A stretch of 64,000 nt of DNA from a virus (Duplodnaviria; Heunggongvirae; Uroviricota; Caudoviricetes). The stretch lies in IMG/VR virus record IMGVR_UViG_3300009154_000029; one strand, written 5' to 3'. Position numbers and translations under genes: made by a program. The notes beneath the pieces were generated by a model. That model searched no databases, was not told the origin of the DNA, and saw nothing but the letters and a program-made list of their open reading frames with translations. This document shows, piece by piece, positions 2,413 through 64,000 of the stretch. The first letter of the stretch is position 1, and each line of letters opens with the position of its first letter.

Positions 2413-2756
2413 AAATAGGGATAATTGGAAGTAGAGGATTTAATAATTACGAGCTGCTGGAAAAAACTCTAGCTGAATATCAAAATGCGGAATTGGTTGT
2501 CAGTGGAGGTGCTCAAGGAGCGGATAAACTTGGCGAAAGATGGGCAAATGAAAAAGGGATAAAAACTTTAATCTTTAAACCCAACTGGGAAAAATTTGGA
2601 AAGAGCGCAGGGTTTATCAGAAACCAAGACATTGTTAAAAATTCAGATCTTGTTATAGCTTTCTGGGACGGAGAATCCAAGGGAACTAAAAACTCAATAG
2701 ATCTTTGCGAGAAATTTAGTATAGATGTTAAAACAATAATTTATGGAAAATATTAA
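2409..2756 (+). CDS. DUF2493 / SLOG-family (YspA-like Rossmann) phage protein
   Basis: IIGSRGF...VVSGGAQGAD...AGFIRNQDIV...IAFWDGESKGT pattern typical of DUF2493. Confidence 0.55.
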   Translation: MKIGIIGSRGFNNYELLEKTLAEYQNAELVVSGGAQGADKLGERWANEKGIKTLIFKPNWEKFGKSAGFIRNQDIVKNSDLVIAFWDGESKGTKNSIDLCEKFSIDVKTIIYGKY

Positions 2757-3360
2757 TGACAAAAGCGGACCAACATTTGAAGAAATTGCTATCGTTGAGA
2801 AAGCAACAGGAGGTTTAATTAAAACCCATGAATGGTGGGTGGTTAAAGGAGTAGATGAAAATTTTAAATCAACTCAAAAGCCATCGCACGAAGAGGATAT
2901 TGTATATCATGGCGTATTAGAGAATTCATTCGTTAGTAAGGGAGGAACCTATATGGGAAACTTTAAAGAAGCACAATGGTATCAAAAGAATAGACTAAAA
3001 GTATATGAACCATATGCTCATGGGGTTGCTGAAGCTTATACTGAAGATGGCGTATTAGAAGGATACTGTGGGTACACCCATAGAGGAGCTCAGATCTTCA
3101 GAATCGGAGATAGATTATTCGATGAAGCATATGAACCCAAAGAGGAAAACTATACATCAGAGCAATGGGCAGGATGGGTAAAAGAATATAATGATGGTAT
3201 TATAGAAGCAGAAGCGGAGGGCGATACCTGGTGGATTGAAGACATAAAGAGAGATGGTGTTGGAAGATATATTCCTTTCAAAATGAGAGGGCCTAAAGTA
3301 ATTGAAACTATGGAAGAAGCTGCACAGGCTGCACAAAATTTAAGTAAGCATTTAAGCTAA
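2743..3360 (+). CDS. hypothetical protein
   Basis: ORF track; overlaps upstream gene by 14 nt (operon-like). Confidence 0.4.
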   Translation: MENINDKSGPTFEEIAIVEKATGGLIKTHEWWVVKGVDENFKSTQKPSHEEDIVYHGVLENSFVSKGGTYMGNFKEAQWYQKNRLKVYEPYAHGVAEAYTEDGVLEGYCGYTHRGAQIFRIGDRLFDEAYEPKEENYTSEQWAGWVKEYNDGIIEAEAEGDTWWIEDIKRDGVGRYIPFKMRGPKVIETMEEAAQAAQNLSKHLS

Positions 3361-23589: not shown

Positions 23590-24213
23590 ATGGAAAAAAG
23601 ACTAAAAGGTGAATTAAGTAAAAGCGAATCTGGCCGATGGGCAATCTGGTACTGGAAAGAGGATAGAAACTCCTTTGAAGGAGGTAAATATCCGGTTCAC
23701 CCAGAGATCCAAGAAAAAATGGAACAATTCGAATTTATGGATTATCTTAGCGATGGCATTGAGGTTGAATTTGTTATAGTTAAAGATGATAAAGTGTGCG
23801 AGGAGTTTGGAACTAACGAATATGCGAAAATTGTTCAACCGGAGGAAGAGGAGATTTCTGAATTTAAAAAAATAAGGGAATCTATTATCAGACAATTGAA
23901 AAATGTGATCTATGATAATGGAGACGTATCGGATGTTGGGAATGAGATAGGAATTGCAATAGCAAAACACCTTAACGAAAACCAAAACGTTGAAGACTTT
24001 ATGCATGGAGTAAGACATGGGGTTTCGTTAATTGACGGATCGCATTCTTCCGATTTCGAGCCTGTTGTTTCTGATGATTTTACAATAGGCCCAAATGGGG
24101 CATATGAATATCAAGACTGGGATCAAGTTTTCGAAAGCTACTTAGGTGCTCAAGATCTTCATTCTTTCCTAGAGTGGCTGAAACAAAATTACGATTCTCC
24201 GGTTATAAAATAG
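23590..24213 (+). CDS. hypothetical acidic protein
   Basis: ORF track. Confidence 0.4.
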   Translation: MEKRLKGELSKSESGRWAIWYWKEDRNSFEGGKYPVHPEIQEKMEQFEFMDYLSDGIEVEFVIVKDDKVCEEFGTNEYAKIVQPEEEEISEFKKIRESIIRQLKNVIYDNGDVSDVGNEIGIAIAKHLNENQNVEDFMHGVRHGVSLIDGSHSSDFEPVVSDDFTIGPNGAYEYQDWDQVFESYLGAQDLHSFLEWLKQNYDSPVIK

Positions 24214-24371
24214 TCAGGTGGCGGAATGGATAGACGCATACTTGTTGGTTTTAAGGTTAAAACATGATTTGCAAACATGGGGTAGTTCCACGCATAGGGG
24301 ATTAGTGCACATGAGTCCTTCTGTAATAAAGAAAAATACCCACCATACAGGTTCGAATCCTGTCCTGACTA
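24212..24371 (+). tRNA. tRNA-like gene with ~70-nt excess in central region (intron-containing or degenerate type II tRNA, Leu-like 5' half)
   Basis: perfect 7-bp acceptor AGTCAGG/CCTGACT, U8, D-arm GCG-GAATGGATAGA-CGC like tRNA-Leu, T-arm ACAGG-TTCGAAT-CCTGT, discriminator A; 160 nt total. Confidence 0.45.
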
Positions 24372-24446
24372 CAATGAATAGAGCAGTTGAGTTCATTACT
24401 CAAAGGAACGCAGACAGTGGAGATGAGCGACCCACCTATTCAAAAT

Positions 24447-24541
24447 AGTCAGGTGGCGGAATGGTAGACGCTATCGTTACAAAGGTAGAATAGTAAATAG
24501 TTTACGCTCTATTCTTACAGGTTCGAATCCTGTCTTGGCTA
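24447..24541 (+). tRNA. tRNA-like gene, type II (long extra arm), anticodon arm not confidently foldable
   Basis: same 5' 25 nt and T-arm as upstream copy; acceptor AGTCAGG/CTTGGCT with two G-U; 7-bp AGAATAG/CTATTCT hairpin in the variable region; 95 nt. Confidence 0.45.
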
Positions 24542-24554
24542 CAAATTAAAAAAA

Positions 24555-24926
24555 ATGAATATGGAAAAATTAATTTTATCTCTAGTGTTTGTTGTTATCA
24601 ATATAGCTTTAGCCTTTATTGATGCAAGGAGAATTAAACAGAATAAACACATTTATCACGGAGTGAATGGAGCAATTTACGGTGGCTTGATTTTAATCGG
24701 TTACTTATTTACACACAGCATTCTTTCATCCTTTGCAATGCTTTTACTTCGTATTCCTGTCTTTAATTCATCTCTAAATCTTTTTAGAGGGCTTCCAATC
24801 GATTACACTAGCAAATCCACAACATCTATCATAGATAAAACAACACAAAAAATAATAGACTCTATTGGATATTTTAATTACTGTTTTGTTATTCTTTTAA
24901 TAGTGTTCGCTTTATTATGTCTTTAA
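24555..24926 (+). CDS. membrane protein
   Basis: three hydrophobic helices. Confidence 0.4.
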   Translation: MNMEKLILSLVFVVINIALAFIDARRIKQNKHIYHGVNGAIYGGLILIGYLFTHSILSSFAMLLLRIPVFNSSLNLFRGLPIDYTSKSTTSIIDKTTQKIIDSIGYFNYCFVILLIVFALLCL

Positions 24927-44115: not shown

Positions 44116-46404
44116 TTACTTGTATTTTCTGATTGATTCTTTTCTGTCTTTAAGGATTTTAAGAAGTCTTTTAGCCACATCCATCTCAGAAGCCTTTCTT
44201 AAAGCTAATGGACCTGGGTCAACGGAAGGTCTTTTTATTGGATCATCATCCGGATCGGTTGGTCTTTGAGGTTTAACTGGTTTTTCAGGATCAACATCAG
44301 GATCAACGTCTGGATCACTTGGTCTAGGCCTAGTGGCAGGCTCTGCATAAGTGAAAGCTTCGAAAGTCATAATTTTTCTAGATCCTATCGATTGTGATCC
44401 GTCCTCGAATAAATTAAAAATTCTTTGTACTCTTGAAGATTTGCTCTCGTTTACAGGTGTTCCGTTAATAACCAATTTGTTATTAACTATATCATATTCA
44501 AGGTGAATCTTATCTCCTACCTCATCATCTATAATTGCATTTGCGATAGGATCTTCGATATATTGTTGAATAGCACGTCTTAAAGGTCTAGCCCCCATTT
44601 CTTTATCATATCCATGCTTCATAATAATTTCCTTAACCGATCTTCCACAAGTTAATTCGATATTTCTTTCTTTTAACTTAGCTGCAACCTTATCTAATTC
44701 ACCATCTATGATTTTGTATAGATTGTCTTGCTCTAAAGGTTTAAATATAATTATTTCATCTATTCTATTAATAAACTCAGGTGGAAGTTTTTTCTTAAGA
44801 TCTGCCTTTACTGCATCTATTCTTTGAATCTCTTGTTTTGAAGCATCTGTAGAGAATCCTATCGTAGGTCTTCTCTCCTCCTCTGCCTTTGCTCCAATGT
44901 TAGAGGTCATGATTATAATGGTATTCTTGAAATCAACCTTTCTACCTTCGCCATCTGTCATATGTCCATCTTCAAAAACTTGAAGCCAAGATTGAAGAAC
45001 TTTAGCGTGTGCTTTTTCTAATTCGTCTAAAAGAACTATACAGTGTGGATTTCTTCTGATCTTTTCAGTGAACTGAGTTCCTTCGCCATATCCAACATAA
45101 CCTGGAGGTGAACCGAATAATCTAGAAACTGTATGAGGCTCACTGAATTCACTCATATCCAATCTAAACATTCTATTAGGATCCCCGAACATTTCCTTAG
45201 CTAAAGCTTTAACTAAGTGGGTTTTACCGACACCAGTAGGTCCAAGGAAAAGAAATACCCCCTCTGGACGGTTTGGATCTTTTAGACCTGCTTTAGTTCT
45301 TTTAATGATACGTGTTACAGCTTCAACTGCTTCGTCTTGTCCAATAACAGACATCTGCAATCTAGACTGTAGGCCTTTTAGAGATTGTTTTTGATCTCTA
45401 GAAACATTCTCGATAGGAATTCTAGTTTTCTTAGAAACAACCTCTTCGGCAAGTTCCTTAGTTATTGATATGGTTTCCTCTTTTGGTGAACCACCTTTAG
45501 CAGCCTTTAATTCCTCTTGGATCTCTTTAACCTTATCATGGGCTTCGAAAGACTCCTCAAATTTTTGTTCTTTTGCTAGACGATTAACCTTTTCCAAAGC
45601 AGATACAAGTTCTGTTTCTAATTCAATTACTCTAGGGTTTTTTGATCTAGACATACGAATTTTAGCTCCTGTTTCGTCCATTAAATCAATGGCCTTGTCA
45701 GGTAAAAATCTGTCGGTAATATATCTTTGTGAAAGTTTTATGAATGATTCTATAGCAGCATCTGTATATGAAACGTTATGAAACTCCTCGTATTTTTTCT
45801 TAATACCATTTAGTATTTCTAAACACTCAGAAAAACTAGGTTCATCCACATAGACCTTTTGAAATCTTCTTTCCATTGCTCCATCCTTCTCAATGCTTTC
45901 TCTGTATTCATTTAGTGTTGTTGCTCCAATTAAACTTAGTTTTCCTCTAGCTAGCGCTGGTTTAAGTGCGTCATAAACCTGTGGTTTTTTTAAGGTGTGC
46001 ATCTCATCCATAAATAGAACTAATCCCTCAGTCTCAACTTCTTGAATAAGTTGTCCTAAAGCACCCACTGCAAAAACTGCGTTAAGATCTATTGATATTA
46101 GTTTTTTGCCGCCTAAAAATTGAGGACAATCACCGCTTGCCATTACTATTGCTAGTTTTTCAACTGCGGCTGTTTTACCTACTCCTGGTTCACCAATTAA
46201 AACTGGATTATTCTTGGTTTTTCTACTTAAAACCCAAATAACTTGTTCAAGTTCTTTGTCTCTTCCAACGACAGGATCTATCTTTCCGTCCTTTGCCATC
46301 TGGGTTAAATCAACACCCAGTGCTTTATAGACCTTGTTACCCTCTGTGACCTGTTGATCTTCAATCTGGCTTTCCAGTACTTTTTTAGTGTGTAGTCTTT
46401 TCAT
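44116..46404 (-). CDS. ClpA/ClpC-like double-AAA+ unfoldase lacking N-domain, with IGF ClpP-docking loop and Pro/Asp-rich C-terminal tail
   Basis: two Walker A boxes GEPGVGKT and GPTGVGKT ~317 aa apart, sensor/arginine-finger blocks, PTIGFSTD loop, tail [28 protein letters not shown]. Confidence 0.8.
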
Positions 46405-55874: not shown

Positions 55875-58160
55875 TCAATTTTTTACAAATCTGTAAATTT
55901 TTGAACCGCTTGTTAGACTTAACAAAAGGATATATGTTCCTGACGATATCACAGAGGTATTTACAACCACTATATTACTCCCCTTAGATAGACGTATTTT
56001 ATTTCTGTATACTATTCTTCCCATCGCATCTATAACATTCACATTTGAGAATTGAGCGGATTCTGAAAAAAAATTTATTCTGTATACATCTTTAACAGGA
56101 TTAGGGGATCCCTCATTAGAGGAAGATCTTACTAGAACTGTAGCAGTTGAAATCTTTGTTAATAAAGCTGATCCATAGGCAGGGATTGTAATGGTTCCAA
56201 TATAGTTATTACCATATACATCTCTGTATGTACCATCCAATGTAGTGACAACAGGGGCATTAGTAGTATTATAAAAAGGAATAAATGTTGTTGTAGGAAT
56301 AGCTACACTTGCGGCATCCCCAGCTATAAATGTTTTCCAGGCAGTCAGTTTCAAACTTGCGGGATCTACAAATGTACCACCAGAGGTAAGATGGTAATAG
56401 TAGTCAAATGGATTGGTTACGTCATCTCTGTAGTAGTTGCTATCAAATACAGCAATCAATCTCATATCATTCTGGATAGTGATTGTTGTAGGAGTATTTA
56501 ACGCACCGTTCCAGTAAAAGAAGTTTTTTTGAGAGGTGGTTGATGGATATATGACATTTTTCTTAACCGTATTGTTTCTCACCTGAGATGTGTCGCTAGG
56601 AAGCCTGTTCATAGAAATACAATCTGTACTGTTATACACCATGTTGGTACGAATATTAACTCTCTTACTATTATTAAGAAATATTCCCTCTCCATTTGTA
56701 GAAGAAACTGAATTACTTGTAATGTTTACATCACTAGCTCCATCTATATAAATACCCCTAGCATCTCCGGTAGTTGTGCTAGTACCAGCTGCTGCTCCCA
56801 CTGTAGTGATAATGATATTATTAGAAATTGTTCTGTTTGTCTTGCCTAAACCTGTGTAAGTGTAAATAGCTCCACCGTCATTCTTCTCACTATTAGTATT
56901 AGTGATATAGTTTTTGTCTACAAGCACATTACCACCCTTCCAATCAATACCATTGAAGCCAATACTATCTATTCTGTTATTAGTAATTGTTACCCCAAGC
57001 CCATCTACAAACACAGCAGCACCTTGTCCATCATCACCTGATCTACCCATTCCGGGGATAAGTCCACACTTAGAAATGGTATTAAACCTAACAGTAACAG
57101 CCCTATCTGCTCTCCCCTGAAGACGAACCCCAGTGTTAAGGCAGTTCTTTATTGTGCTGGACTCAACCAATGCATTCGCCACATACCACATCTTTACAGC
57201 ATCAAAGTTGTACTCAAATTCGCAATTAGATACGGTGATGTTGCTAGCATCCTTTGCTATTAAAGCAGCATAACCAGCTCCGGTAAATCTAAGGTAACTA
57301 AACTTAATATTACTCCTTGCTGTTCTCCCACCGTATCCACCGCAGTGAACCAATGTATCTTGTGCACTCACTTTAATGGTATAACTAGCTGGATTGAGAT
57401 TGCCAAAGTACACTTGTAATGTTTTCCCTGAATTGTTCCAATACCACTCCCCAAAACTGTCAAGAGTCCTGATGTCATCCTGAAAAAAGAACCCGTAATT
57501 AGCTTTCCCGGGATAGGTGTTAGTAACACCTGACCAAATATCACCACTAGCTGGAGCTGGGTTTCTATAGCTCACCTTTGTACCAACTTGGCTTTTAACT
57601 CTTCCTGTATCTAAAATCCATCTCTCTTTCCTTACAATAATCTGAGCTCCTGTCCAGTTAGTTGTGCTTAACTGACTGCTAGTCAAACTGGTATCTCCAG
57701 CTGAAAGTGTACCCACTGACTGATAGGTTAGATATCCCTTATTTGTTGCTGTGTAATTAGGGAATCTACCCATTCCTGTCAGAACACCATTAACCGTTAC
57801 TATCGAAGCTCTACTCGGATCACTGGTTATAGGGTTACTACTGTAGATGCCCACCCCTGAAAGAGTCCATCCTGTAACAGTTACAAATCCGGTAATCTCA
57901 GGAAGGCTTCCTGTACCATAAGCATTAAACACTAGGTTGTCTCTATTGGGAATAAGCTTTCCCTGAAACACATCCCCTCGTTTAAAAGAAATGGTGTCAC
58001 CAGAAGCAAAGGTGGCTGTGTTCACCTTATTTAGTGACTGCCACGGAGCGCCCAATGTGCCAGCATTAGCATCATTTCCCGTGCTTGATGATACGTAATA
58101 ATTCTTTGCCTGTGCTCCTAGGGACGACAAAATGATAAGGTAAAAAATCAGGGCTCTCAT
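55875..58160 (-). CDS. secreted right-handed beta-helix protein with T9SS C-terminal sorting domain
   Basis: signal peptide MRALIFYLIILSSLGAQA, parallel beta-helix-like repeats, C-terminal ~80 aa with Por-secretion CTD pattern. Confidence 0.6.
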   Translation of the reverse strand: MRALIFYLIILSSLGAQAKNYYVSSSTGNDANAGTLGAPWQSLNKVNTATFASGDTISFKRGDVFQGKLIPNRDNLVFNAYGTGSLPEITGFVTVTGWTLSGVGIYSSNPITSDPSRASIVTVNGVLTGMGRFPNYTATNKGYLTYQSVGTLSAGDTSLTSSQLSTTNWTGAQIIVRKERWILDTGRVKSQVGTKVSYRNPAPASGDIWSGVTNTYPGKANYGFFFQDDIRTLDSFGEWYWNNSGKTLQVYFGNLNPASYTIKVSAQDTLVHCGGYGGRTARSNIKFSYLRFTGAGYAALIAKDASNITVSNCEFEYNFDAVKMWYVANALVESSTIKNCLNTGVRLQGRADRAVTVRFNTISKCGLIPGMGRSGDDGQGAAVFVDGLGVTITNNRIDSIGFNGIDWKGGNVLVDKNYITNTNSEKNDGGAIYTYTGLGKTNRTISNNIIITTVGAAAGTSTTTGDARGIYIDGASDVNITSNSVSSTNGEGIFLNNSKRVNIRTNMVYNSTDCISMNRLPSDTSQVRNNTVKKNVIYPSTTSQKNFFYWNGALNTPTTITIQNDMRLIAVFDSNYYRDDVTNPFDYYYHLTSGGTFVDPASLKLTAWKTFIAGDAASVAIPTTTFIPFYNTTNAPVVTTLDGTYRDVYGNNYIGTITIPAYGSALLTKISTATVLVRSSSNEGSPNPVKDVYRINFFSESAQFSNVNVIDAMGRIVYRNKIRLSKGSNIVVVNTSVISSGTYILLLSLTSGSKIYRFVKN

Positions 58161-58859: not shown

Positions 58860-60086
58860 ATGAGAAGAATTTTAAATTTTTATGATTTCACATCAGATTC
58901 ATCAATGAATGAATCTGACAAACCGTTGGAGGGGAAACCGAAAGAAGGAAAGCCTTCATTCGAAATCCCCAAGATTAATCAGAAGATGCCTAGCGATTAT
59001 TTGGGCAAAGGAGGGGGATTGGAGGGAGGAAAATACCCCGGAGGTAGAAAAACATATGCCAGACTAAGGACGAAAGCTGTTACTGATCTCCTAAAATTAA
59101 AAAAAGATATGGAGGAAGAGGGTTTTATGGAAGACTGTGAAGAATCATTAAAGGGGGCTAAGGAGGAGTTAAAAAAATTGTTTGCTAGCCCGATTACTGC
59201 CAGAAAATTTAGAGACAACTACGAGAAATCAAAGAATACAGCAATTGCTAATAGCCAAAAATCAATTTTTAAAAAGTATTTAAATGCGATCGAAAATCTT
59301 GAAATTGCCTACTATACAAATAGCGGTCTTTGGCAGGAAGGCATATCCCCATTAGTCAGAAAGAAAATTGAAAAAATATATCCCACAGGATCTAAATTCT
59401 ATAAGGAATACCCCGATGCTATTGCTTTTGTTCTTCCTGAAGATCCGGAGCTTAATAGAATTATATTCGTGAATTGTGTTAAGGGATTAGAAAAAAGCAT
59501 GTTTGACGAAATGAAGTTCGTTATGATCCATGAGATTCAACATTTACTGTTTAAGATCTGTCCAATAAATCCAGAGGCCCAAATTGGAAAGACTTTTATT
59601 GGCCCAGGAGAACCAAAATCAAGTCCGTTAGCATCCTTGTTTGGAGGAGGGGGTCTTTTTAAAACTGCTAAGGATTTATATTTTAAATTATCGGGTAAAA
59701 AATCAGAGGCGGAGATGGAATCAGCTTTAGCTCGAATAAAGAGAATATCAAAAGAAACTAGTAGCGACACCGAGGCAAAGAACATATATTTTTATTGGAC
59801 TAAACTATGCATGGAAAAGGGTAATGGCCAATACATAGATGAGATAACTGAAAATGCATCTCGAATTATTGCTATGAGATCAGTTCTAGGGGTTTCCCCT
59901 GGGAAGGACATAAGCAAAAAAATGATCCTGCCCTATATCCTTAGAAAGGAAAGCGATACAAACATATCCTGGCTATTGCTGGCTTGGGCTAAAAACGGAT
60001 TTAAAGATTTGGATCAATTTTTAAATGGAATAAACGCACTGGCTAAATCGGACCAAGCCTCTCAATTTGGCGGAGATTACGCGTAA
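58860..60086 (+). CDS. HExxH zinc metalloprotease-like protein, CTS-like N-terminus MRRILNFYDFTSD
   Basis: HEIQH motif (MIHEIQHLLF) around residue 224. Confidence 0.45.
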   Translation: MRRILNFYDFTSDSSMNESDKPLEGKPKEGKPSFEIPKINQKMPSDYLGKGGGLEGGKYPGGRKTYARLRTKAVTDLLKLKKDMEEEGFMEDCEESLKGAKEELKKLFASPITARKFRDNYEKSKNTAIANSQKSIFKKYLNAIENLEIAYYTNSGLWQEGISPLVRKKIEKIYPTGSKFYKEYPDAIAFVLPEDPELNRIIFVNCVKGLEKSMFDEMKFVMIHEIQHLLFKICPINPEAQIGKTFIGPGEPKSSPLASLFGGGGLFKTAKDLYFKLSGKKSEAEMESALARIKRISKETSSDTEAKNIYFYWTKLCMEKGNGQYIDEITENASRIIAMRSVLGVSPGKDISKKMILPYILRKESDTNISWLLLAWAKNGFKDLDQFLNGINALAKSDQASQFGGDYA

Positions 60087-60184
60087 ATGAAAGATAAACT
60101 TACCATCTCATACAGCCTGGACTCACCTCCAGGCTTTTTTGTGGTCTAAGCCCCCGGGCAGGTTTTCGAAAAATCCCCGAGTTT

Positions 60185-60610
60185 ATGGGTTATATTTGGA
60201 TTATGAACCAAGACGAGATCAAAGAGCTAGAAGCCCAAACACTAAAGCAATATCTGAAGGAGCTAGAGACCCTGGTGTCCATGCCCGAACTCTACAAATC
60301 AAACTACCCCTTATGGGACAAGATGGTGCATAACAGACTCAGGCATCCCACCGATGAGAAGATAGACTGGGCTCTGATCTACCAGTACGAGGCGGTAATG
60401 GACACACCCCAGCACATGCTCGATCTGTTTGTCTCAGTGGAGAGGGATGATTGGGGGGTTTCATCGTTTCCCATAGGGGAGATACGCTGGGACATGGACA
60501 CCGAAGGGTATATGAGGGTCTATGGAGTGGACCGACCCATGGCTCTCAAGATCAAGAGTCTATACCGAAAGCAGGTGTTCATAGAGCTCGAGTGGGTCAA
60601 AGTCCACTAA
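60185..60610 (+). CDS. hypothetical protein in GC-rich island, paralog of 55297..55755
   Basis: alignment of C-terminal blocks; GC-rich codon usage. Confidence 0.45.
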   Translation: MGYIWIMNQDEIKELEAQTLKQYLKELETLVSMPELYKSNYPLWDKMVHNRLRHPTDEKIDWALIYQYEAVMDTPQHMLDLFVSVERDDWGVSSFPIGEIRWDMDTEGYMRVYGVDRPMALKIKSLYRKQVFIELEWVKVH

Positions 60611-60654
60611 ACCCCCAGGAGACCCGCCCACCACAAGCCAATGATATATAAGAC

Positions 60655-61041
60655 ATGAAACACATAGACACATACGAGATGCTAGAGGCTAAAGGCCCAT
60701 GCTGGACAGGCTACAAGCAGATTGGCACCAAGATCAAGAAAGGCAGAAAGGTGCCGAGATGCGTGCCGATCAAGGAGGGAGAGATCACACCACCACCAGG
60801 CTGGGAGATGCAAGACTCATCCCTCTATAAGAGATACACGTTCAAGGACTTCAAAGTTGCCATGGCATTTATGAACGAGGTCGCAGAGGTGTGCAACCAA
60901 ATGAATCACCATCCCAAGTGGACCAACGTTTATAAGACTGTCCAGTGCTGGCTTAGAACCCATGACGCAGGAGATGTGCCTACAGAGAAGGATCACGAGC
61001 TTGCTCTAGCTATGGACTCTATAGCCTCCAGGCTCAGCTAG
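60655..61041 (+). CDS. pterin-4a-carbinolamine dehydratase (PCD/DCoH)-like protein with N-terminal extension
   Basis: EVCNQMNHHPKWTNVYKTV...RTHDAG matches the [E]xxxHHPxxxxxY...HD PCD signature. Confidence 0.6.
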   Translation: MKHIDTYEMLEAKGPCWTGYKQIGTKIKKGRKVPRCVPIKEGEITPPPGWEMQDSSLYKRYTFKDFKVAMAFMNEVAEVCNQMNHHPKWTNVYKTVQCWLRTHDAGDVPTEKDHELALAMDSIASRLS

Positions 61042-61067
61042 AAGCCCACACAAAACTCCAATCATAC

Positions 61068-61093
61068 AGTCCAGGTTATTCTGGACTTTTTTA
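61068..61093 (+). terminator. rho-independent terminator
   Basis: AGTCCAG-GTTATT-CTGGACT hairpin followed by TTTTTT. Confidence 0.55.
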
Positions 61094-61099
61094 TGTCCC

Positions 61100-61272
61100 C
61101 TCATATAGTATAGTAGTAAGGTAGTATGCGAAGGGGAGCCTACCCCTACCTAGTGCCAGCACCTAGTCCAGCATATATCATGAGGAGAAGCTTGGATAGG
61201 CCTCCCCACATAGTATGATGGTAACATAGTATGCAAGGGGAAGACCGGAACCCCTAGTGGACACGCGTGGGA
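61100..61272. repeat. two ~65-bp imperfect direct repeats (~105-bp spacing), each with a GGGG..CCCC hairpin, in GC-rich non-coding DNA
   Basis: CATATAGTAT.GTAAGGTAGTATGCGAAGGGGAGCCTACCCCTACCTAGTG vs CACATAGTATGATGGTAACATAGTATGCAAGGGGAAGACCGGAACCCCTAGTGG. Confidence 0.55.
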
Positions 61273-61622
61273 GGTGCTAGGAAGAGCCTAGATGAGGGAC
61301 GGCTAAGTGGGTGTATATGGGGAATCTGAGGGAGCTCTGGCCCCTGATGGAAACCCCTCTGCAGGACCGAGCCACCACCCAGGGTGGGTACACGGTGATT
61401 TCTGTGATGCCGCGTTTGCCTAGTTTCCCAGCCCGGGCCGAGTCCACCGCCGACGGTTCGCCGGGACGTCTGGGAAATCCTGGAATTCTGTGTGATTTTG
61501 TGGAGATTTGTGTGAATCCCCGGTCGGGCTCACCCGGTCCCACAGATTCCCCCGCTAATCTCGCCCCGCCAGGCTGCCTTAGATCCCTATAGGAGCTCGC
61601 CTCGCCCCGGATATATAGGTGT

Positions 61623-62249
61623 ATGAAGCATATTAAACCCCTAAACGAAAACTGGGATGACGACGACCCGGATTACGACATTCCCGATGACGACGAGCCC
61701 ACCGAGCCCTTTAAGAGAAGATTGGATTTACCTAAGTGGGAGAAGCTCTTTCACGTTCTCTATATAGGTGACCACTACGCCCTAGTCTATATGGGCACAG
61801 ACCAGAAGGACCTTTGGATAGTTGACTTGGACTGGGGGGAAATCCGAGAGGATATGGAGAATTTGGGATTCTGGCTTGTCTTTGATGCCGATCCCACTAC
61901 TTGGGAGGAGAACCAAGGTGGTCTGGAGGATTTTCTCACTCTGGCCTGGCAGGGTAAGCTGGGAATTAAGAAGGAGGATCTCTTCGAGGCTGGGGATGAT
62001 CCCGAGGTTTCGGCTGAGCGATTCATTGACAATCAGGCTTTCTCCAAGAAGGCCGAGGTTTGCCGAATCAGCACGCCGGAGTTTGCGGAGGTGGTGATAG
62101 GAGAGCTGCTGAAAGCTCATGGCCGGGCTCATGAGAGACACATAGTCACTGCCAAGAGGTATCGGAACATTCTTCCGGCGGATTTCAAGGGTGTAGGTAA
62201 CAAGAGGATGGCGAGCTATATCGCAGCCGTGTGGCCGAGCGCAACTTAG
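61623..62249 (+). CDS. hypothetical acidic protein in GC-rich island (MKHIKPLNENWDDDDPD)
   Basis: ORF track. Confidence 0.45.
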   Translation: MKHIKPLNENWDDDDPDYDIPDDDEPTEPFKRRLDLPKWEKLFHVLYIGDHYALVYMGTDQKDLWIVDLDWGEIREDMENLGFWLVFDADPTTWEENQGGLEDFLTLAWQGKLGIKKEDLFEAGDDPEVSAERFIDNQAFSKKAEVCRISTPEFAEVVIGELLKAHGRAHERHIVTAKRYRNILPADFKGVGNKRMASYIAAVWPSAT

Positions 62250-62353
62250 GCGCAGGTTGGAGTCTACTCTCCCGGCTCCTTTTGAGAGCCACGCCCGTGA
62301 CCGGTGTCCCCTAGTGCCACAATGTAAATGTATGGCATTTCCCCGAGAAGAAA

Positions 62354-62473
62354 AAAATATTCCGGTGGTATTTTGATATATAAGACAGAATAAAAAAAAT
62401 GAGTATGAACAAAATATTCCGGTGGTATTTTGATATATAAGACAGAATAAAAAAAATGAGTATGAACAAAATA
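62354..62473. repeat. perfect 57-bp tandem duplication (2.1 copies) spanning the leader and first 12 nt of the downstream gene
   Basis: aaaatattccggtggtattttgatatataagacagaataaaaaaaatgagtatgaac at 62354 and again at 62411. Confidence 0.8.
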
Positions 62474-63157
62474 ACCAGCTACGAGGATTTCCTTAATGAG
62501 GATAATAAACCAAAAGCTAAAACTAAAACTAAGGTTATAATCCTCCCTATAAGCAGTAGTCTATCCAATGGAGAATCTGCCCCGGCAAATAAAATCATCA
62601 CTCCTAAGTTCTGGAGCATCAAACAAGCAAAGCCCGAGCATAAACAAATAGCACTTGATATTCTTAATGCACTAAGCGGGTTTACCGAGAATGAAGAAGC
62701 TGTGATAAAGACGTTTAGAGAGGAAATAAAGACACAAGAGGATTTCTTTGGTGTTCAACAGGTTTGGCAATATTGGTTTCCAAGCATACAGAATTTGAGA
62801 AATGTGAGGTACAAAACTATGGCTGAAGCTGATAAGATGGGTAAAACCAGGGAAACCAGAAAGGGAATTGGCTTCAGAAACGCCTTAGGCTACTATCTTA
62901 ACGATAAGCAACTTGCCACATTGAATGCTGTTCTCCCTGCTGGAATTATAAAGATCGCAAAAACTAAAGGGTCAGGTGGAGAAATTTCCACATCAAGGAC
63001 AAGAACAATTGACTTTCCCGATATGACAAAAGAGGCTCTTATAGATATTCTATTAAGAAGCTTATCTATAATGCAAAAGGATCTTACATATACCGGAGAG
63101 CAAGTTTGCGCCCATATAGACTCTGTTTGTAAAAATTACAGAGAAGCTAAAAAGTAA
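62462..63157 (+). CDS. hypothetical protein, CTS-like N-terminus MNKITSYEDFLNE (alternative start 62456)
   Basis: ORF track; motif. Confidence 0.45.
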   Translation: MNKITSYEDFLNEDNKPKAKTKTKVIILPISSSLSNGESAPANKIITPKFWSIKQAKPEHKQIALDILNALSGFTENEEAVIKTFREEIKTQEDFFGVQQVWQYWFPSIQNLRNVRYKTMAEADKMGKTRETRKGIGFRNALGYYLNDKQLATLNAVLPAGIIKIAKTKGSGGEISTSRTRTIDFPDMTKEALIDILLRSLSIMQKDLTYTGEQVCAHIDSVCKNYREAKK

Positions 63158-63174
63158 TAATTCAACTAAAGATA

Positions 63175-63205
63175 TCCCAGCCCAATCTTCGGATTGGGTT
63201 TTTTG
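63175..63205 (+). terminator. rho-independent terminator
   Basis: CCCAATC-TTCG-GATTGGG hairpin plus TTTTTT. Confidence 0.6.
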
Positions 63206-63370
63206 TGCGTCTCTGCAGCGATGCATGCATCACATAAAAACCGTGGCCAACGGTTCCGCGACGGCCGCAGCGGAAGCTTCCCAGCAGCTGGATGAAACAA
63301 AATGACCCCACCGGCCTATAATAGACGTCCAGAAATATCTCTGGGCGATTAAAAAAATAAAAAACAAAAG

Positions 63371-63907
63371 ATGAAAAAAATCATTTTGATTGTAGCAGTT
63401 GCTTTGACTTCAGCAGTTGCTAGTGCACAGATGCCATGCGCATTTAAGAAATCAGACAAGATGTTAGAAGGTACAGTTTCTTATACTAAAGCAACTGATA
63501 CTAAAGCAACTTGGACTCTAAACCCAACAGTTGGTTACTTTGTAACTAATCGCGTTGCAGTTGGTCTATCTGCAGAATTAGGTGAAACCGCAGATGTTAA
63601 AACAACAAACGTGGGTGCATTCGCAAGATGTTACTTTATGAACATCGGACAACACGCACACGTTTACTCGCAATTAGGTGTTGCTGCCAACTCCTCTACA
63701 GACGCTGGCGTTAAGACAACTTCGACTACAGCAGGTCTTGGTCTTGGTGCTAACTACTTCGTTAGTCCAAAATTAGCTCTTAGCATGAAATTAGCAGATC
63801 TAGTAAGCTACACTAACAGCGATTCACATTCAACATTAACAGTTGGATTCGAAGGTGTAACTAGTCCGTTCACTACAGGAAGCTTTGGGGTACTTTATAA
63901 GTTCTAA
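63371..63907 (+). CDS. outer-membrane beta-barrel protein (porin-family/OmpA-like barrel) with signal peptide
   Basis: signal MKKIILIVAVALTSAVASAQ, alternating amphipathic strands, C-terminal ...GVLYKF. Confidence 0.55.
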   Translation: MKKIILIVAVALTSAVASAQMPCAFKKSDKMLEGTVSYTKATDTKATWTLNPTVGYFVTNRVAVGLSAELGETADVKTTNVGAFARCYFMNIGQHAHVYSQLGVAANSSTDAGVKTTSTTAGLGLGANYFVSPKLALSMKLADLVSYTNSDSHSTLTVGFEGVTSPFTTGSFGVLYKF

Positions 63908-63945
63908 TTCGTTTATCAGCTAACCCCTATAGTTGATAAGCCAGC

Positions 63946-63975
63946 CAGGAATTGAAAAATTCCTGGTTTTTTTTG
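63946..63975 (+). terminator. rho-independent terminator
   Basis: CCAGGAAT-TGAAA-AATTCCTGG hairpin plus T8. Confidence 0.6.
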
Positions 63976-64000
63976 TAATAAATTTTTTTATCTGAAAGGG

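What the first reader, a model, noticed from the sequence alone, without database searches (positions are those of the whole stretch)
24212..24541. Tandem pair of tRNA-like genes with identical Leu-like 5' halves and T-arms but aberrantly long central regions
Seen directly: both copies start AGTCAGGTGGCGGAATGG(A)TAGACGC. This closely resembles bacterial tRNA-Leu (GGTGGCGGAATTGGTAGACGC). Both end with ACAGGTTCGAATCCTGT plus a 7-nt acceptor complement and discriminator A. Copy 1 is 160 nt, with about 70 extra nucleotides between the D-arm and T-arm, including the small hairpins CATG-ATTTGCAAA-CATG and TTTTAA-GG-TTAAAA. Copy 2 is 95 nt, with a 7-bp AGAATAG/CTATTCT hairpin and a 15-nt loop, but no canonical 7-nt anticodon loop with U33 that I could fold by hand. 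The acceptor of copy 2 carries two G-U pairs. Inference: these may be intron-containing tRNAs, degenerating duplicates, or tRNA-derived elements with another role, such as a decoy for host anticodon nucleases or a recombination site.
Basis: seen in the sequence. Interest (0 to 1): 0.6.

Follow-up and report, generated by a model that had tools for sequence, protein, structure and literature searches.

The report
Phage tRNA-like RNAs without anticodons
The two odd "tRNAs" are real members of a large, apparently undescribed family of phage RNAs that keep the top half of a leucine tRNA and replace the anticodon arm with a different, conserved insert in each lineage, much like the engineered "tRNA scaffold" used to express foreign RNAs.

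Summary
Window 24212-24371 (160 nt) and 24447-24541 (95 nt) both match Rfam tRNA end to end just above threshold, with 88- and 36-nt unaligned centres. ARAGORN calls neither.

They are not duplicates, pseudogenes or intron-containing tRNAs.

Members share a class II tRNA-Leu shell: acceptor mostly AGTCAGG/CCTGACT, Leu-type D-arm, T-arm, A73, U8, A14, A15-U48, no encoded CCA. The centre is 22-130 nt with no anticodon arm, no shared motif and little excess structure.

Individual centres are selected: 1.2% divergence against 9.9% in homologous flanks. Copy 1's centre recurs in 7 contigs and at least 5 contexts, once in a different shell. Copy 2's centre has 4 relatives, with a covarying hairpin and a conserved loop.

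Units behave as cassettes: homology ends at the shell edges.

Best reading: natural tRNA-scaffolded small RNAs, processed like tRNAs and possibly leucylated, carrying lineage-specific payloads. What the payloads do is unknown.

The parts
24212..24371 (+). Unit 1 (160 nt): tRNA-Leu-type tRNA-like RNA with a 109-nt centre in place of the anticodon arm
   Evidence: Rfam RF00005 32.8 bits, model positions 1-71, 88 nt unaligned. Six relatives at 95% identity or more, in at least 5 genomic contexts.
24212..24237 (+). Unit 1, 5' shell: acceptor 5' strand AGTCAGG (24212-18), U8 G9, D-arm GCGG-AATGGATAG-ACGC (24221-37)
   Evidence: Read from the sequence. The same shell occurs in 105 of 144 non-canonical units pooled from both scans. 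The D-arm is identical in type to canonical phage tRNA-Leu.
24238..24346 (+). Unit 1 centre (payload), 109 nt; the first 54 nt are invariant in all 7 known members; palindrome GTGCAC at 24305-24310
   Evidence: In L445 the same centre sits in a different shell. No Rfam match.
24347..24371 (+). Unit 1, 3' shell: T-arm ACAGG-TTCGAAT-CCTGT (24347-63), acceptor 3' strand CCTGACT (24364-70), discriminator A73 (24371); followed by C, with no encoded CCA
24372..24446 (+). 75-nt spacer between the units; no promoter or terminator above chance; only a loose resemblance to the GAAAGA leader hairpin seen in other loci
24447..24541 (+). Unit 2 (95 nt): second tRNA-like RNA, same shell type, unrelated 45-nt centre
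   Evidence: Rfam RF00005 33.9 bits. Four relatives, L449-L452. The four-helix model is supported by covariation.
24447..24471 (+). Unit 2, 5' shell: AGTCAGG (24447-53), UG, D-arm GCGG-AATGGTAG-ACGC (24456-71)
24472..24486 (+). Unit 2 centre, 5' segment TATCGTTACAAAGGT, unpaired in the model, lying where the anticodon arm would be
   Evidence: Identical in all 5 members, but 14 of its 15 nt were part of the search pattern, so this invariance is not independent evidence.
24487..24515 (+). Unit 2 centre hairpin: stem AGAATAG/CTATTCT (24487-93 / 24509-15) and 15-nt loop TAAATAGTTTACGCT (24494-24508), at the position of a class II variable arm
   Evidence: 4 of the 7 stem pairs change on both sides across 5 sequences. 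14 of the 15 loop positions are invariant and were not imposed by the search.
24517..24541 (+). Unit 2, 3' shell: T-arm (24517-33), acceptor 3' strand CTTGGCT with two G-U pairs (24534-40), A73 (24541); followed by CAAA
23590..24213 (+). Upstream ORF (207 aa, no family match). Its TAG stop overlaps the first two bases of unit 1. Context only.
   Evidence: The overlap is not a family feature. Its homologue in L444 is only about 40% identical over 58 aa, while the adjacent RNA is about 97% identical.
24555..24926 (+). Downstream ORF (123 aa), starting 13 nt after unit 2. Context only; probably co-transcribed.

Best explanation
The two units are genes for stable, non-decoding tRNA-like RNAs. They belong to a large phage family that keeps the top half and elbow of a class II tRNA-Leu (acceptor stem, D-arm, T-arm, A73) and carries a lineage-specific insert where the anticodon arm should be.

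Shown:
- The shell is a real tRNA fold, with compensatory changes in the acceptor, D and T stems.
- There is no anticodon arm.
- The inserts share no common motif, but each one is held constant by selection.
- Shell and insert are modular, and units turn up as discrete cassettes in unrelated phage contexts, often inside tRNA gene arrays.

Inferred mechanism:
- The pair is transcribed with its neighbours.
- The shell makes each unit a substrate for the host tRNA maturation machinery: RNase P cuts at A1 after the conserved U(-1), the 3' end is trimmed after A73-C74, and CCA is added because it is not encoded.
- This releases a nuclease-resistant L-shaped RNA that presents the insert, as the engineered tRNA scaffold does for foreign RNAs.
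- The shell retains the whole bacterial LeuRS identity set, and LeuRS needs neither the anticodon nor the variable arm, so the RNAs may also be leucylated.
- The insert is the functional payload, for example a protein- or RNA-binding module used in host takeover or counter-defence. Its target is unknown.
- The shared shells also act as homology arms through which inserts are exchanged between co-infecting phages.
For: - tRNA fold. Rfam tRNA matches both units full length above the gathering score. Other members score 31-45 bits, against 48-70 for canonical tRNAs in the same arrays.
- Family size. The D-arm scan gave 79 units with 67 distinct centres of 23-119 nt. The independent 3'-shell scan gave 161 unique units of 65-182 nt, up to 6 per contig.
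- Compensatory variants in the acceptor, T and D stems.
- No anticodon arm beyond chance: 1 observed against 1.3 expected; 2 against 1.8 when U33 and R37 are also required.
- Identity positions not imposed by the searches: A73 62/70, U48 61/70, C74 69/70, CCA encoded 0/70, U(-1) 57/70, U8 152/161, A14 and A15 in 112 of 122 parseable D-arms.
- These are the E. coli LeuRS determinants, and minimal tRNA-Leu lacking the anticodon and variable arms is still charged (PMC9976931).
- Canonical tRNA-Leu genes of the same phages share the D-arm, A73 and the 'AC' 3' context.
- Inserts are selected: 10/842 differences in centres against 830/8360 in homologous flanks. L444's neighbouring protein is about 40% identical while the RNA is about 97% identical.
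- Unit 2's hairpin covaries and its loop is conserved.
- Modularity and cassette behaviour. The same centre occurs in a different shell in L445. About 9 of the 22 related pairs with both flanks measurable have both flanks unrelated, against 1 of 344 near-identical canonical tRNA pairs. Homology ends at the shell edges.
- 46 of 74 loci carry canonical tRNAs nearby.
- The engineered tRNA scaffold has the same design and works because the cell processes and protects it (PMC3753655).
Against: - No expression, end-mapping or aminoacylation data exist. Processing and charging are inferred only from conserved positions.
- On average the centres are barely more structured than shuffles (0.478 against 0.461) and share no motif, so nothing points to a common payload function.
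- No target was found: no antisense signal to the phage's own translation-initiation regions, no matches elsewhere in the loci, no conserved partner protein.
- One acceptor sequence predominates (105 of 144). A pure scaffold role, which needs only a helix, does not explain that; it hints that something reads the shell sequence itself.
- About a quarter of the units selected by 3' shell lack a clean D-arm.
- The related pairs used for the selection test are few and not all independent.
- The window's own pair is not in a tRNA array.
Confidence: 0.55

Rival explanations
1. The shell is the functional part. The RNAs are tRNA-Leu mimics that titrate or occupy a host factor reading the acceptor stem and elbow: LeuRS, EF-Tu, RNase P, the CCA-adding enzyme, or a tRNA-targeting defence enzyme acting on acceptor ends. 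The centre matters only as a non-decoding filler.
For: One acceptor sequence dominates (105/144) although any helix would fold. The full LeuRS identity set is retained. Up to 6 copies with one shell occur per contig, which suggests dosage. The centres have no common motif or structure.
Against: Centres are conserved about 8-fold better than flanks. The same 109-nt centre is kept in 7 contigs, and in L445 while the shell differs at about 9 positions. Unit 2's loop is invariant and its stem covaries. Copies within one genome carry different centres rather than repeats of one. No tRNA-targeting system or its inhibitor context was identified.
Confidence: 0.2
2. Selfish mobile tRNA-like elements (MITE- or SINE-like) that spread among phage genomes using their tRNA-like ends, with no benefit to the phage.
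For: Identical units occur in unrelated contexts, with homology ending exactly at the ends. The contrast with canonical tRNAs is strong. There is an 8-nt terminal inverted repeat, TAGTCAGG...CCTGACTA, and multiple copies per contig.
Against: Copies within one genome are not similar to one another in the centre, unlike recently transposed elements. No target-site duplication, transposase or reverse transcriptase is associated. The tRNA tertiary-interaction positions (U8, A14, A15-U48, GG, A73) are conserved, which mobility alone does not need. Double crossover within the shared shells explains the cassette pattern without transposition.
Confidence: 0.1
3. mRNA punctuation signals: tRNA-like structures placed between genes only so that RNase P and 3' processing enzymes cut the polycistronic transcript.
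For: The units are intergenic and co-oriented with their neighbours. There is no promoter or terminator around the window pair, and unit 2 ends 13 nt before the next start codon. In 10 of 74 loci the unit lies just upstream of the large terminase gene, and a small-terminase-type gene lies just upstream of the unit in 7 loci.
Against: Punctuation needs only an acceptor/T minihelix. It does not explain conserved, selected centres, retention of A73 and the Leu elbow, or placement inside tRNA arrays. It could be a side effect of the main explanation.
Confidence: 0.07
4. Unusual decoding tRNAs: intron-containing tRNAs, tRNAs with expanded anticodon loops, or tRNAs with very long variable arms, which are spliced or used directly in translation (for example as suppressor or recoding tRNAs).
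For: Rfam and, for some short members, ARAGORN give tRNA calls. Unit 2 can be drawn with a weak CTATC/GGTAG stem and an 8-nt loop (my reading). Phages of this kind carry large tRNA arrays.
Against: A canonical anticodon arm is at chance frequency. Intron-aware calls scatter over 23 isotypes and more than 40 anticodons, with scattered intron positions and mismatched stems. No group I or II intron model matches. Centres can be as short as 22-24 nt without forming an arm. A Leu-identity shell with arbitrary anticodons would cause mistranslation.
Confidence: 0.05
5. Decaying tRNA pseudogenes or remnants of a tRNA-targeted attachment site.
For: Low Rfam scores, no ARAGORN call, and two G-U pairs in unit 2's acceptor.
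Against: The family has hundreds of members with an almost fixed shell, compensatory changes and selected centres. Both tRNA halves are present. There are only about a dozen occurrences in 185,579 cellular genomes, mostly on short MAG contigs. No integrase is nearby in the window.
Confidence: 0.03

Closest known systems
Engineered 'tRNA scaffold' for recombinant RNA expression (Ponchon and Dardel; PMC3753655)
   Same: Identical design: acceptor stem, T-arm and D-arm kept, anticodon stem-loop replaced by an arbitrary insert. It works because the chimera is recognised, precisely processed, modified and protected by the cell's tRNA machinery.
   Different: It is man-made and uses other tRNA chassis (for example human tRNA-Lys3). 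The family here is natural, phage-encoded, uses a tRNA-Leu chassis with A73, and carries inserts under natural selection. Processing of the natural RNAs is inferred, not shown.
tmRNA (SsrA)
   Same: Same topology: the 5' and 3' ends form an acceptor stem plus T-arm, and a large functional domain replaces the anticodon arm. tmRNA is aminoacylated without decoding by an anticodon.
   Different: tmRNA has alanine identity (G3-U70), a degenerate D-arm, pseudoknots and a tag ORF, binds SmpB, and is 260-400 nt. Here there is Leu-type identity and a true D-arm, the units are 65-182 nt, there is no conserved ORF, and no Rfam tmRNA match reaches significance.
Canonical class II tRNA-Leu encoded by the same phages
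   Same: Same D-arm type (GTGGCGGAATGGTAGACGC), A73, T-loop and 'AC' 3' context without CCA. This is the probable evolutionary source of the shell.
   Different: Canonical genes have a normal CUUAAAA- or CUUAGGA-type anticodon loop, a short variable arm and a different acceptor stem (GC...) in each phage. The family has no anticodon arm and mostly one acceptor, AGTCAGG.
T4 stable RNAs rnaC and rnaD (species 1 and 2)
   Same: Small stable phage RNAs of unknown function, encoded in a tRNA gene cluster. rnaC ends in a tRNA-like T-arm and acceptor, followed by CAAAC.
   Different: No sequence relationship. rnaC reaches only 17.5 bits on tRNA-Sec and has no Leu-type D-arm at its 5' end. The tRNA-like part is a 3' domain, not a shell around an insert.
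Bacterial Y RNA-like YrlA and viral tRNA-like structures (plant-virus TLS, mascRNA)
   Same: Non-decoding RNAs that mimic the tRNA elbow and acceptor and are handled by tRNA enzymes. Plant-virus TLSs are aminoacylated.
   Different: YrlA has the opposite topology (its ends lie in the Ro60-binding stem). TLSs lie at the 3' ends of RNA genomes. No Rfam match to any of them, and no Ro60 gene among the window ORFs scanned.

Membership tests
Canonical tRNA (Rfam RF00005) | 7-bp acceptor stem, D-arm with GG, T-arm with GTTCRAnYC, discriminator base | tested here: met
   Both units align to model positions 1-71 at 32.8 and 33.9 bits, above the gathering score of 29. The helices covary in the family.
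Canonical tRNA (Rfam RF00005) | Anticodon arm: 5-bp stem, 7-nt loop with U33 and R37, at positions 27-43 | tested here: not met
   Rfam leaves 88 and 36 nt unaligned there. ARAGORN makes no call. Family-wide frequency of such an arm equals shuffles.
Intron-containing bacterial tRNA | A group I (or II) intron in the anticodon loop, whose removal restores a coherent anticodon arm | tested here: not met
   No intron family at E<=10 in the region or E<=1 in the window. Intron-aware ARAGORN gives incoherent isotypes and intron positions.
Bacterial LeuRS substrate (tRNA-Leu identity) | A73, U8:A14, A15-U48, G18G19, D/T-loop tertiary pairs; anticodon and variable arm not required (PMC9976931) | tested here: met
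   All are present in both window units. In the family, free of search bias: A73 62/70, U48 61/70, U8 152/161, A14 and A15 112/122. The rule comes from E. coli and Aquifex, not from the unknown host.
Bacterial LeuRS substrate (tRNA-Leu identity) | Actual leucylation of the RNA | not testable with these tools
   Needs in vitro charging or acid-gel/periodate assays.
tRNA-scaffold-type chimeric RNA | Acceptor, T- and D-arms retained; anticodon stem-loop replaced by a foreign insert | tested here: met
   Definition taken from PMC3753655.
tRNA-scaffold-type chimeric RNA | Precise processing by RNase P and 3' enzymes, CCA addition, and stability in the cell | not testable with these tools
   Only indirect evidence: U(-1) 57/70, C74 69/70, CCA never encoded, the same 3' context as canonical tRNAs of the same phages.
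tmRNA | G3-U70 alanine identity, tag ORF with resume codon, pseudoknots, match to tmRNA models | tested here: not met
   Position 3-70 is U-A in unit 1 and U-G in unit 2. There is no conserved ORF, and centres can be as short as 23 nt. The only tmRNA-model hit in the window lies elsewhere, at 18.1 bits against a gathering score of 50.
Y RNA-like (YrlA) / Ro60 system | Match to the YrlA model; RNA ends in a Ro60-binding stem; Ro60 (TROVE) gene nearby | tested here: not met
   No Rfam match. The topology is opposite. No TROVE domain in the 40 window ORFs scanned.
Phage attachment site / tRNA gene fragment | Only the 3' part of a host tRNA; integrase nearby; the same sequence present in host chromosomes | tested here: not met
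   Both halves are present. Up to 6 units occur per contig. There are about a dozen true occurrences in 185,579 genomes, mostly on short MAG contigs. No integrase was found in the window ORFs scanned.
MITE / IS-type mobile element | Terminal inverted repeats with target-site duplication, similar copies within a genome, a mobilising enzyme | tested here: inconclusive
   An 8-nt inverted terminus exists, but it is simply the acceptor stem. Units occur in unrelated contexts. However, the upstream AT and downstream CAAA contexts do not form a repeat (no systematic search for duplications was made), centres within one genome differ, and no transposase is linked.
T4 rnaC/rnaD-type stable RNAs | Sequence or structural similarity to rnaC or rnaD | tested here: not met
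   No similarity. rnaC is tRNA-like only in its 3' domain, at 17.5 bits.

The most novel reading that the evidence does not exclude
Phages run a natural, modular RNA display system. One leucine-tRNA chassis is read by the host's tRNA maturation enzymes, and possibly charged by LeuRS. It presents many different selected RNA modules, such as aptamers, sponges or guides used in host takeover or counter-defence. These modules are shuffled between unrelated phages as cassettes by recombination within the invariant shells.
Probability: 0.3. Interest if true: 0.85.

Novelty: new variant of a known kind. Interest (0 to 1): 0.68.

Why it matters
- **A hidden class of phage RNA genes.** Standard tRNA finders either miss these units or label them as tRNAs with arbitrary anticodons. 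That pollutes phage tRNA censuses and codon-usage or recoding inferences.
- **A natural precedent for a laboratory tool.** If the RNAs are processed like tRNAs, evolution reached the design of the engineered tRNA scaffold independently. The family would then supply hundreds of inserts that tolerate, or were optimised for, that context.
- **A new kind of charged RNA.** If they are leucylated, they would be a class of charged but non-decoding RNAs in infected cells. That bears on LeuRS and EF-Tu availability, on enzymes that use aminoacyl-tRNA, and on defences that target tRNAs.
- **A tractable case of modular RNA evolution.** One shell carries many selected centres, which are exchanged as cassettes.
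- **An old open question.** It gives a handle on what the non-tRNA stable RNAs in phage tRNA clusters do, a question open since T4 species 1 and 2 were described.

Tried and rejected
1. **Stop-codon link.** In the window the upstream ORF's TAG overlaps the start of unit 1. Across the family the distance to the upstream ORF ranges from 4 to more than 1,000 nt, so this is coincidence.
2. **Spread across many bacterial phyla.** This was my first reading of the genome scan, and it was wrong. About 90 of the 102 hits are chance 17-mer matches in GC-rich coding DNA; only about a dozen are real.
3. **AGGT/AAGGT motif in the centres.** It looked enriched with mononucleotide shuffles but disappears with dinucleotide shuffles on 124 non-redundant centres. 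The related Shine-Dalgarno-like idea is dropped; the enrichment was only mild.
4. **A common layout of an unpaired 5' segment followed by a 3' hairpin.** I suggested this from constrained folds. It is not supported statistically: first 14 nt 0.424 against 0.434; last 14 nt 0.465 against 0.438 +/- 0.014. It does hold for unit 2 specifically.
5. **Intron-aware ARAGORN.** The calls are artefactual and incoherent.
6. **A conserved partner gene.** None found. The best candidates are TerL in 10 of 74 loci, and TerS and a YkuK-type RNaseH_like protein in 7 each.
7. **Centres antisense to, or copied from, other DNA.** No matches in the loci, none in INPHARED, and no signal against the window's translation-initiation regions.
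8. **tmRNA-like small ORF.** Unit 1 contains ATG...TAG preceded by AAGG, but this is not general; centres can be as short as 23 nt.
9. **Unit 2 has no relatives.** The shell/centre junction pattern found four relatives.
10. **Minimum-free-energy z-scores** are uninformative.
11. **Literature.** Six searches, including exact sequence strings, found no description of the family. The library holds open-access papers only.
Full report
**1. The observation**

- Unit 1 (24212-24371, 160 nt) and unit 2 (24447-24541, 95 nt) both begin AGTCAGG-TG-GCGGAATGG(A)TAGACGC. Both end ACAGGTTCGAATCCTGT plus a 7-nt acceptor complement and A.
- Unit 2's acceptor has two G-U pairs.
- The small hairpins in unit 1, and the AGAATAG/CTATTCT stem with a 15-nt loop in unit 2, are present.
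- Rfam's tRNA model matches both units over its whole length at 32.8 and 33.9 bits (gathering score 29). It skips 88 and 36 central nucleotides.
- A permissive scan of the whole window finds no third copy and no other RNA family.
- ARAGORN calls no tRNA in the 64 kb.
- Folding energies are no better than those of shuffles, so thermodynamics neither supports nor refutes anything here.

**2. The setting**

The window looks like part of a large phage of a Bacteroidota host.

- It is about 35% GC, mostly ORFans, and has no DNA match among 50,697 deposited phages.
- It encodes thymidylate synthase, GMP reductase, Fpg, a ClpB-like ATPase, a lysin-like protein (peptidoglycan-binding domain), a Tad6-like Thoeris inhibitor, and a beta-helix protein with a type IX secretion sorting domain.
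- I saw no RNA ligase, Ro60, reverse transcriptase or CCA-adding enzyme among the 40 ORFs scanned.
- No promoter or terminator signal exceeds chance around the pair, and unit 2 ends 13 nt before the next start codon. Co-transcription with the neighbouring genes is therefore likely.

**3. The pair belongs to a large family**

- Parsing gave 79 units with an AGTCAGG-type acceptor and 67 different centres of 23-119 nt.
- It also gave 19 ordinary tRNA-Leu(CAA) genes from one phage group.

An independent scan with the 22-nt 3' shell also hit the limit.

- It gave 161 unique units of 65-182 nt (median 106), with up to 6 per contig.

Other distribution points:

- In the same arrays, Rfam scores these units at 31-45 bits and canonical tRNAs at 48-70.
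- 46 of 74 loci carry canonical tRNAs nearby, and many units sit inside tRNA gene arrays. The window's pair does not.
- In 185,579 cellular genomes the shell is almost absent. My first impression of a spread across phyla was wrong: most of the 102 hits were chance 17-mer matches in GC-rich genes. Only about a dozen are real, half of them in Chitinophagales or other Bacteroidota MAGs and most on short contigs.
- No cultured phage has a full-length match.
- A variant member does lie, unannotated, in the published 735-kb phage LR756501.

**4. The shell is a genuine tRNA-Leu top half**

For each half I used only the sample in which the search did not impose it.

| Feature | Count |
|---|---|
| A73 | 62/70 |
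| U48 | 61/70 |
| C74 after A73 | 69/70 |
| Encoded CCA | 0/70 |
| U(-1) | 57/70 |
| U8 | 152/161 |
| D-arm with GG loop | 122/161 |
| A14 and A15 | 112 of those 122 |

- The helices covary. Acceptor variants include AGTTAGG/CCTAACT, GGTCAGG/CCTGACC, AGTCAAA/TTTGACT and AGTTAGA/TCTAACT. T-stem variants include GCAGG/CCTGC, GTAGG/CCTAC and GAAGG/CCTTC. D-stem variants include GCGG/CGC, GTGT/ACAC and GTGG/CCAC.
- Canonical tRNA-Leu genes of the same phages share this D-arm, A73 and the 'AC' 3' context. They have normal anticodon loops and varied acceptors.
- According to the identity review PMC9976931, E. coli LeuRS reads A73, U8:A14, A15-U48, G18G19 and the D/T-loop pairs. It does not read the anticodon or the variable arm, and minimal tRNA-Leu lacking both is still charged.
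- The invariant shell is therefore the LeuRS identity set. It is also the acceptor/T-arm domain that RNase P and the CCA-adding enzyme are known to recognise (general knowledge, not tested here).
- One acceptor sequence predominates (105 of 144 pooled units), more than helix formation requires. I cannot explain that.

**5. The centre is not an anticodon arm and not an intron**

- A 5-bp/7-nt arm at the expected place occurs as often as in shuffled centres: 1 against 1.3, and 2 against 1.8 with U33 and R37 required.
- Default ARAGORN of 161 units, with 21 different 'anticodons'.
- In intron-aware mode with unlimited intron length, ARAGORN fuses unit 1's 5' half to unit 2's 3' half.
- With introns capped at 120 nt, it calls Pro(TGG) and Leu(TAG) with mismatched stems.
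- Across the family it scatters over 23 isotypes, more than 40 anticodons, and intron positions 29-43.
- No intron, ribozyme or other Rfam family matches the centres.

**6. What the centres are**

As a class they are hypervariable.

- There is no shared motif once dinucleotide composition is controlled. This retracts my earlier AGGT claim.
- Predicted pairing barely exceeds shuffles: 0.478 against 0.461.

Individually they are selected.

- In related pairs whose flanks are homologous but diverged, centres differ at 10 of 842 positions and flanks at 830 of 8,360. The pairs are not all independent.

Unit 1's 109-nt centre:

- It recurs in seven contigs (window, L016, L444-L448), and its first 54 nt are invariant.
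- L444 is a relative of the window's phage. Its upstream protein is only about 40% identical to the window's, yet the RNA is about 97% identical. L016 and L445 share no proteins with the window at all.
- In L445 the same centre sits in a different shell: acceptor AGTTAGA/TCTAACT, T-stem GCAGG/CCTGC, another D-loop.

Unit 2's centre:

- It has four relatives, L449-L452.
- On the five-sequence alignment the four-helix model pairs 93.5% of cells, against 33-43% when partners are slid.
- Six pairs change on both sides, four of them in the centre hairpin, and 0 of 500 shuffles reach that.
- The 15-nt loop is conserved, and the search did not impose it. The invariance of the 5' segment TATCGTTACAAAGG was imposed by my search pattern and is not evidence.
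- Caveat: there are only five sequences, and the structure was derived from one of them.

**7. Cassette behaviour**

- Between the window and L016, identity (about 95%) begins at ATAGTCAGG and stops at CCTGACTACAA. Both flanks are unrelated. L016 has a canonical tRNA-Lys roughly where the window has unit 2.
- Across the family, pairing on centres at least 80% identical, about 9 of the 22 pairs with both flanks measurable have both flanks at the unrelated baseline. For near-identical canonical tRNA pairs (at least 95% identity) in the same contigs the figure is 1 of 344.
- In L444 the second position of the tandem pair is occupied by a unit with an unrelated centre and an extra insertion in its D-loop.
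- Units within one genome differ in their centres. The conserved upstream AT and downstream CAAA contexts do not form a repeat, though I made no systematic search for target-site duplications. No mobilising enzyme is linked.
- For these reasons I favour exchange by double crossover within the shared 25-27-nt shells over transposition. This is inference.

**8. Mechanism**

The anatomy matches the engineered tRNA scaffold: acceptor, T- and D-arms kept, anticodon stem-loop replaced by an insert. That scaffold works because such RNAs are recognised, precisely processed, modified and spared from degradation (PMC3753655).

I therefore propose:

- The units are excised from polycistronic or tRNA-array transcripts by the host tRNA maturation enzymes and completed with CCA.
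- They accumulate as stable L-shaped RNAs presenting a lineage-specific payload.
- They may also be leucylated.

I found no target for the payloads:

- no antisense signal to the phage's own start regions;
- no matches elsewhere in the loci;
- no partner protein.

Rival readings, with reasons for and against, are in the Rival explanations section:

- a shell-centred decoy or mimic (about 0.2);
- a selfish mobile element (about 0.1);
- mRNA punctuation (about 0.07);
- an unusual decoding tRNA (about 0.05);
- a pseudogene or attachment-site remnant (about 0.03).

**9. Comparison with known systems, and novelty**

The family works like the tRNA scaffold and is topologically like tmRNA. It is not a member of either:

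- it lacks alanine identity, a tag ORF and pseudoknots;
- no tmRNA model matches it.

It is also not YrlA, a plant-virus TLS, or T4 rnaC/rnaD. rnaC is tRNA-like only in its 3' domain, at 17.5 bits.

Six literature searches, including searches for exact sequence strings, found no description. The library is open-access only, so an existing description cannot be excluded.

I rate it a new variant of a known kind (tRNA-like non-coding RNAs). The family-level description carries high confidence. The proposed mode of action carries moderate-to-low confidence.

Noticed in passing
L450 10682-10698; L451, L043, L066, L113, L120, L246 and others. No strict match in the window; loose version in the spacer 24372-24446.: A sharply defined leader hairpin, TGAC(A/G)-stem-GAAAGA-stem, with a covarying 4-6-bp stem and an invariant loop. 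53 were found against 12 expected. It ends 4-6 nt before the unit start in 16 of 252 shell-type starts, against 2 of 482 canonical tRNAs. Sometimes it is followed by a T-run instead. Function unknown: a processing signal, a terminator or a promoter element are all possible.
   Followed up: partly
L445 8553-8720 (- strand): Hatchet self-cleaving ribozyme, RF02678, 75.3 bits (gathering score 51), in a contig that also carries the unit 1 RNA.
   Followed up: no
L011 4124-4186: freshwater-1 RNA (RF02979) at 70.1 bits, just under its gathering score of 72, inside a phage tRNA array that also holds family units.
   Followed up: no
L017, L035, L048, L062 (for example L017 13391-13459): A family unit is followed after 2 nt by a second, 69-nt tRNA-like RNA (GGCTATGTGG...CATGGCCG), which ARAGORN reports as a tRNA of undetermined type with a 2-nt 'anticodon'.
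   Followed up: no
window 24305-24310: The palindrome GTGCAC in unit 1's centre (also in L445) is GTATAC in the other five members. This double change keeps the hexamer self-complementary, as expected for a dimerisation (kissing) site or a DNA-level palindrome.
   Followed up: no
L444 6353-6481 (- strand): The unit at the position of the window's unit 2 has an unrelated centre and an extra insertion of about 24 nt inside its D-loop. Rfam no longer detects it.
   Followed up: partly
L223 1417-1527 (LR756501.1, about 204050-204160, minus strand): The published but unannotated 735-kb 'uncultured phage' genome carries a variant family member (acceptor AGTTAAG/CTTAACT, discriminator T) within a tRNA array. 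It scores 45 bits on RF00005 and ARAGORN does not call it.
   Followed up: partly
window 2743-3360 (+): The ORF matches Pfam Tad6, a type I Thoeris inhibitor (E 1.8e-9, 38.2 bits against a cut-off of 27). This is a candidate anti-defence gene.
   Followed up: no
window 55875-58160 (-) and 44116-46404 (-): A beta-helix protein with a type IX secretion C-terminal sorting domain, which points to a Bacteroidota host, and a full-length ClpB/ClpA-like double-AAA ATPase encoded by the phage.
   Followed up: no
window 60001-64000: GC content rises to 46%, from about 35% over the rest of the window. This may be a module boundary or recently acquired DNA.
   Followed up: no
window 24218-24448 (+) and 24214-24396 (-): Mechanical ORFs of 76 and 60 aa lie over unit 1. 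They give blastp 'homologues' in L016 and L445 only because the RNA is conserved, so gene callers may annotate them as conserved hypothetical proteins.
   Followed up: partly
7 of 74 family loci (for example L087), about 0.8 kb upstream of the unit: A YkuK-type 'RNaseH_like' protein (PF04308, E 1e-22) recurs near family units. The association is weak and its significance is unknown.
   Followed up: partly
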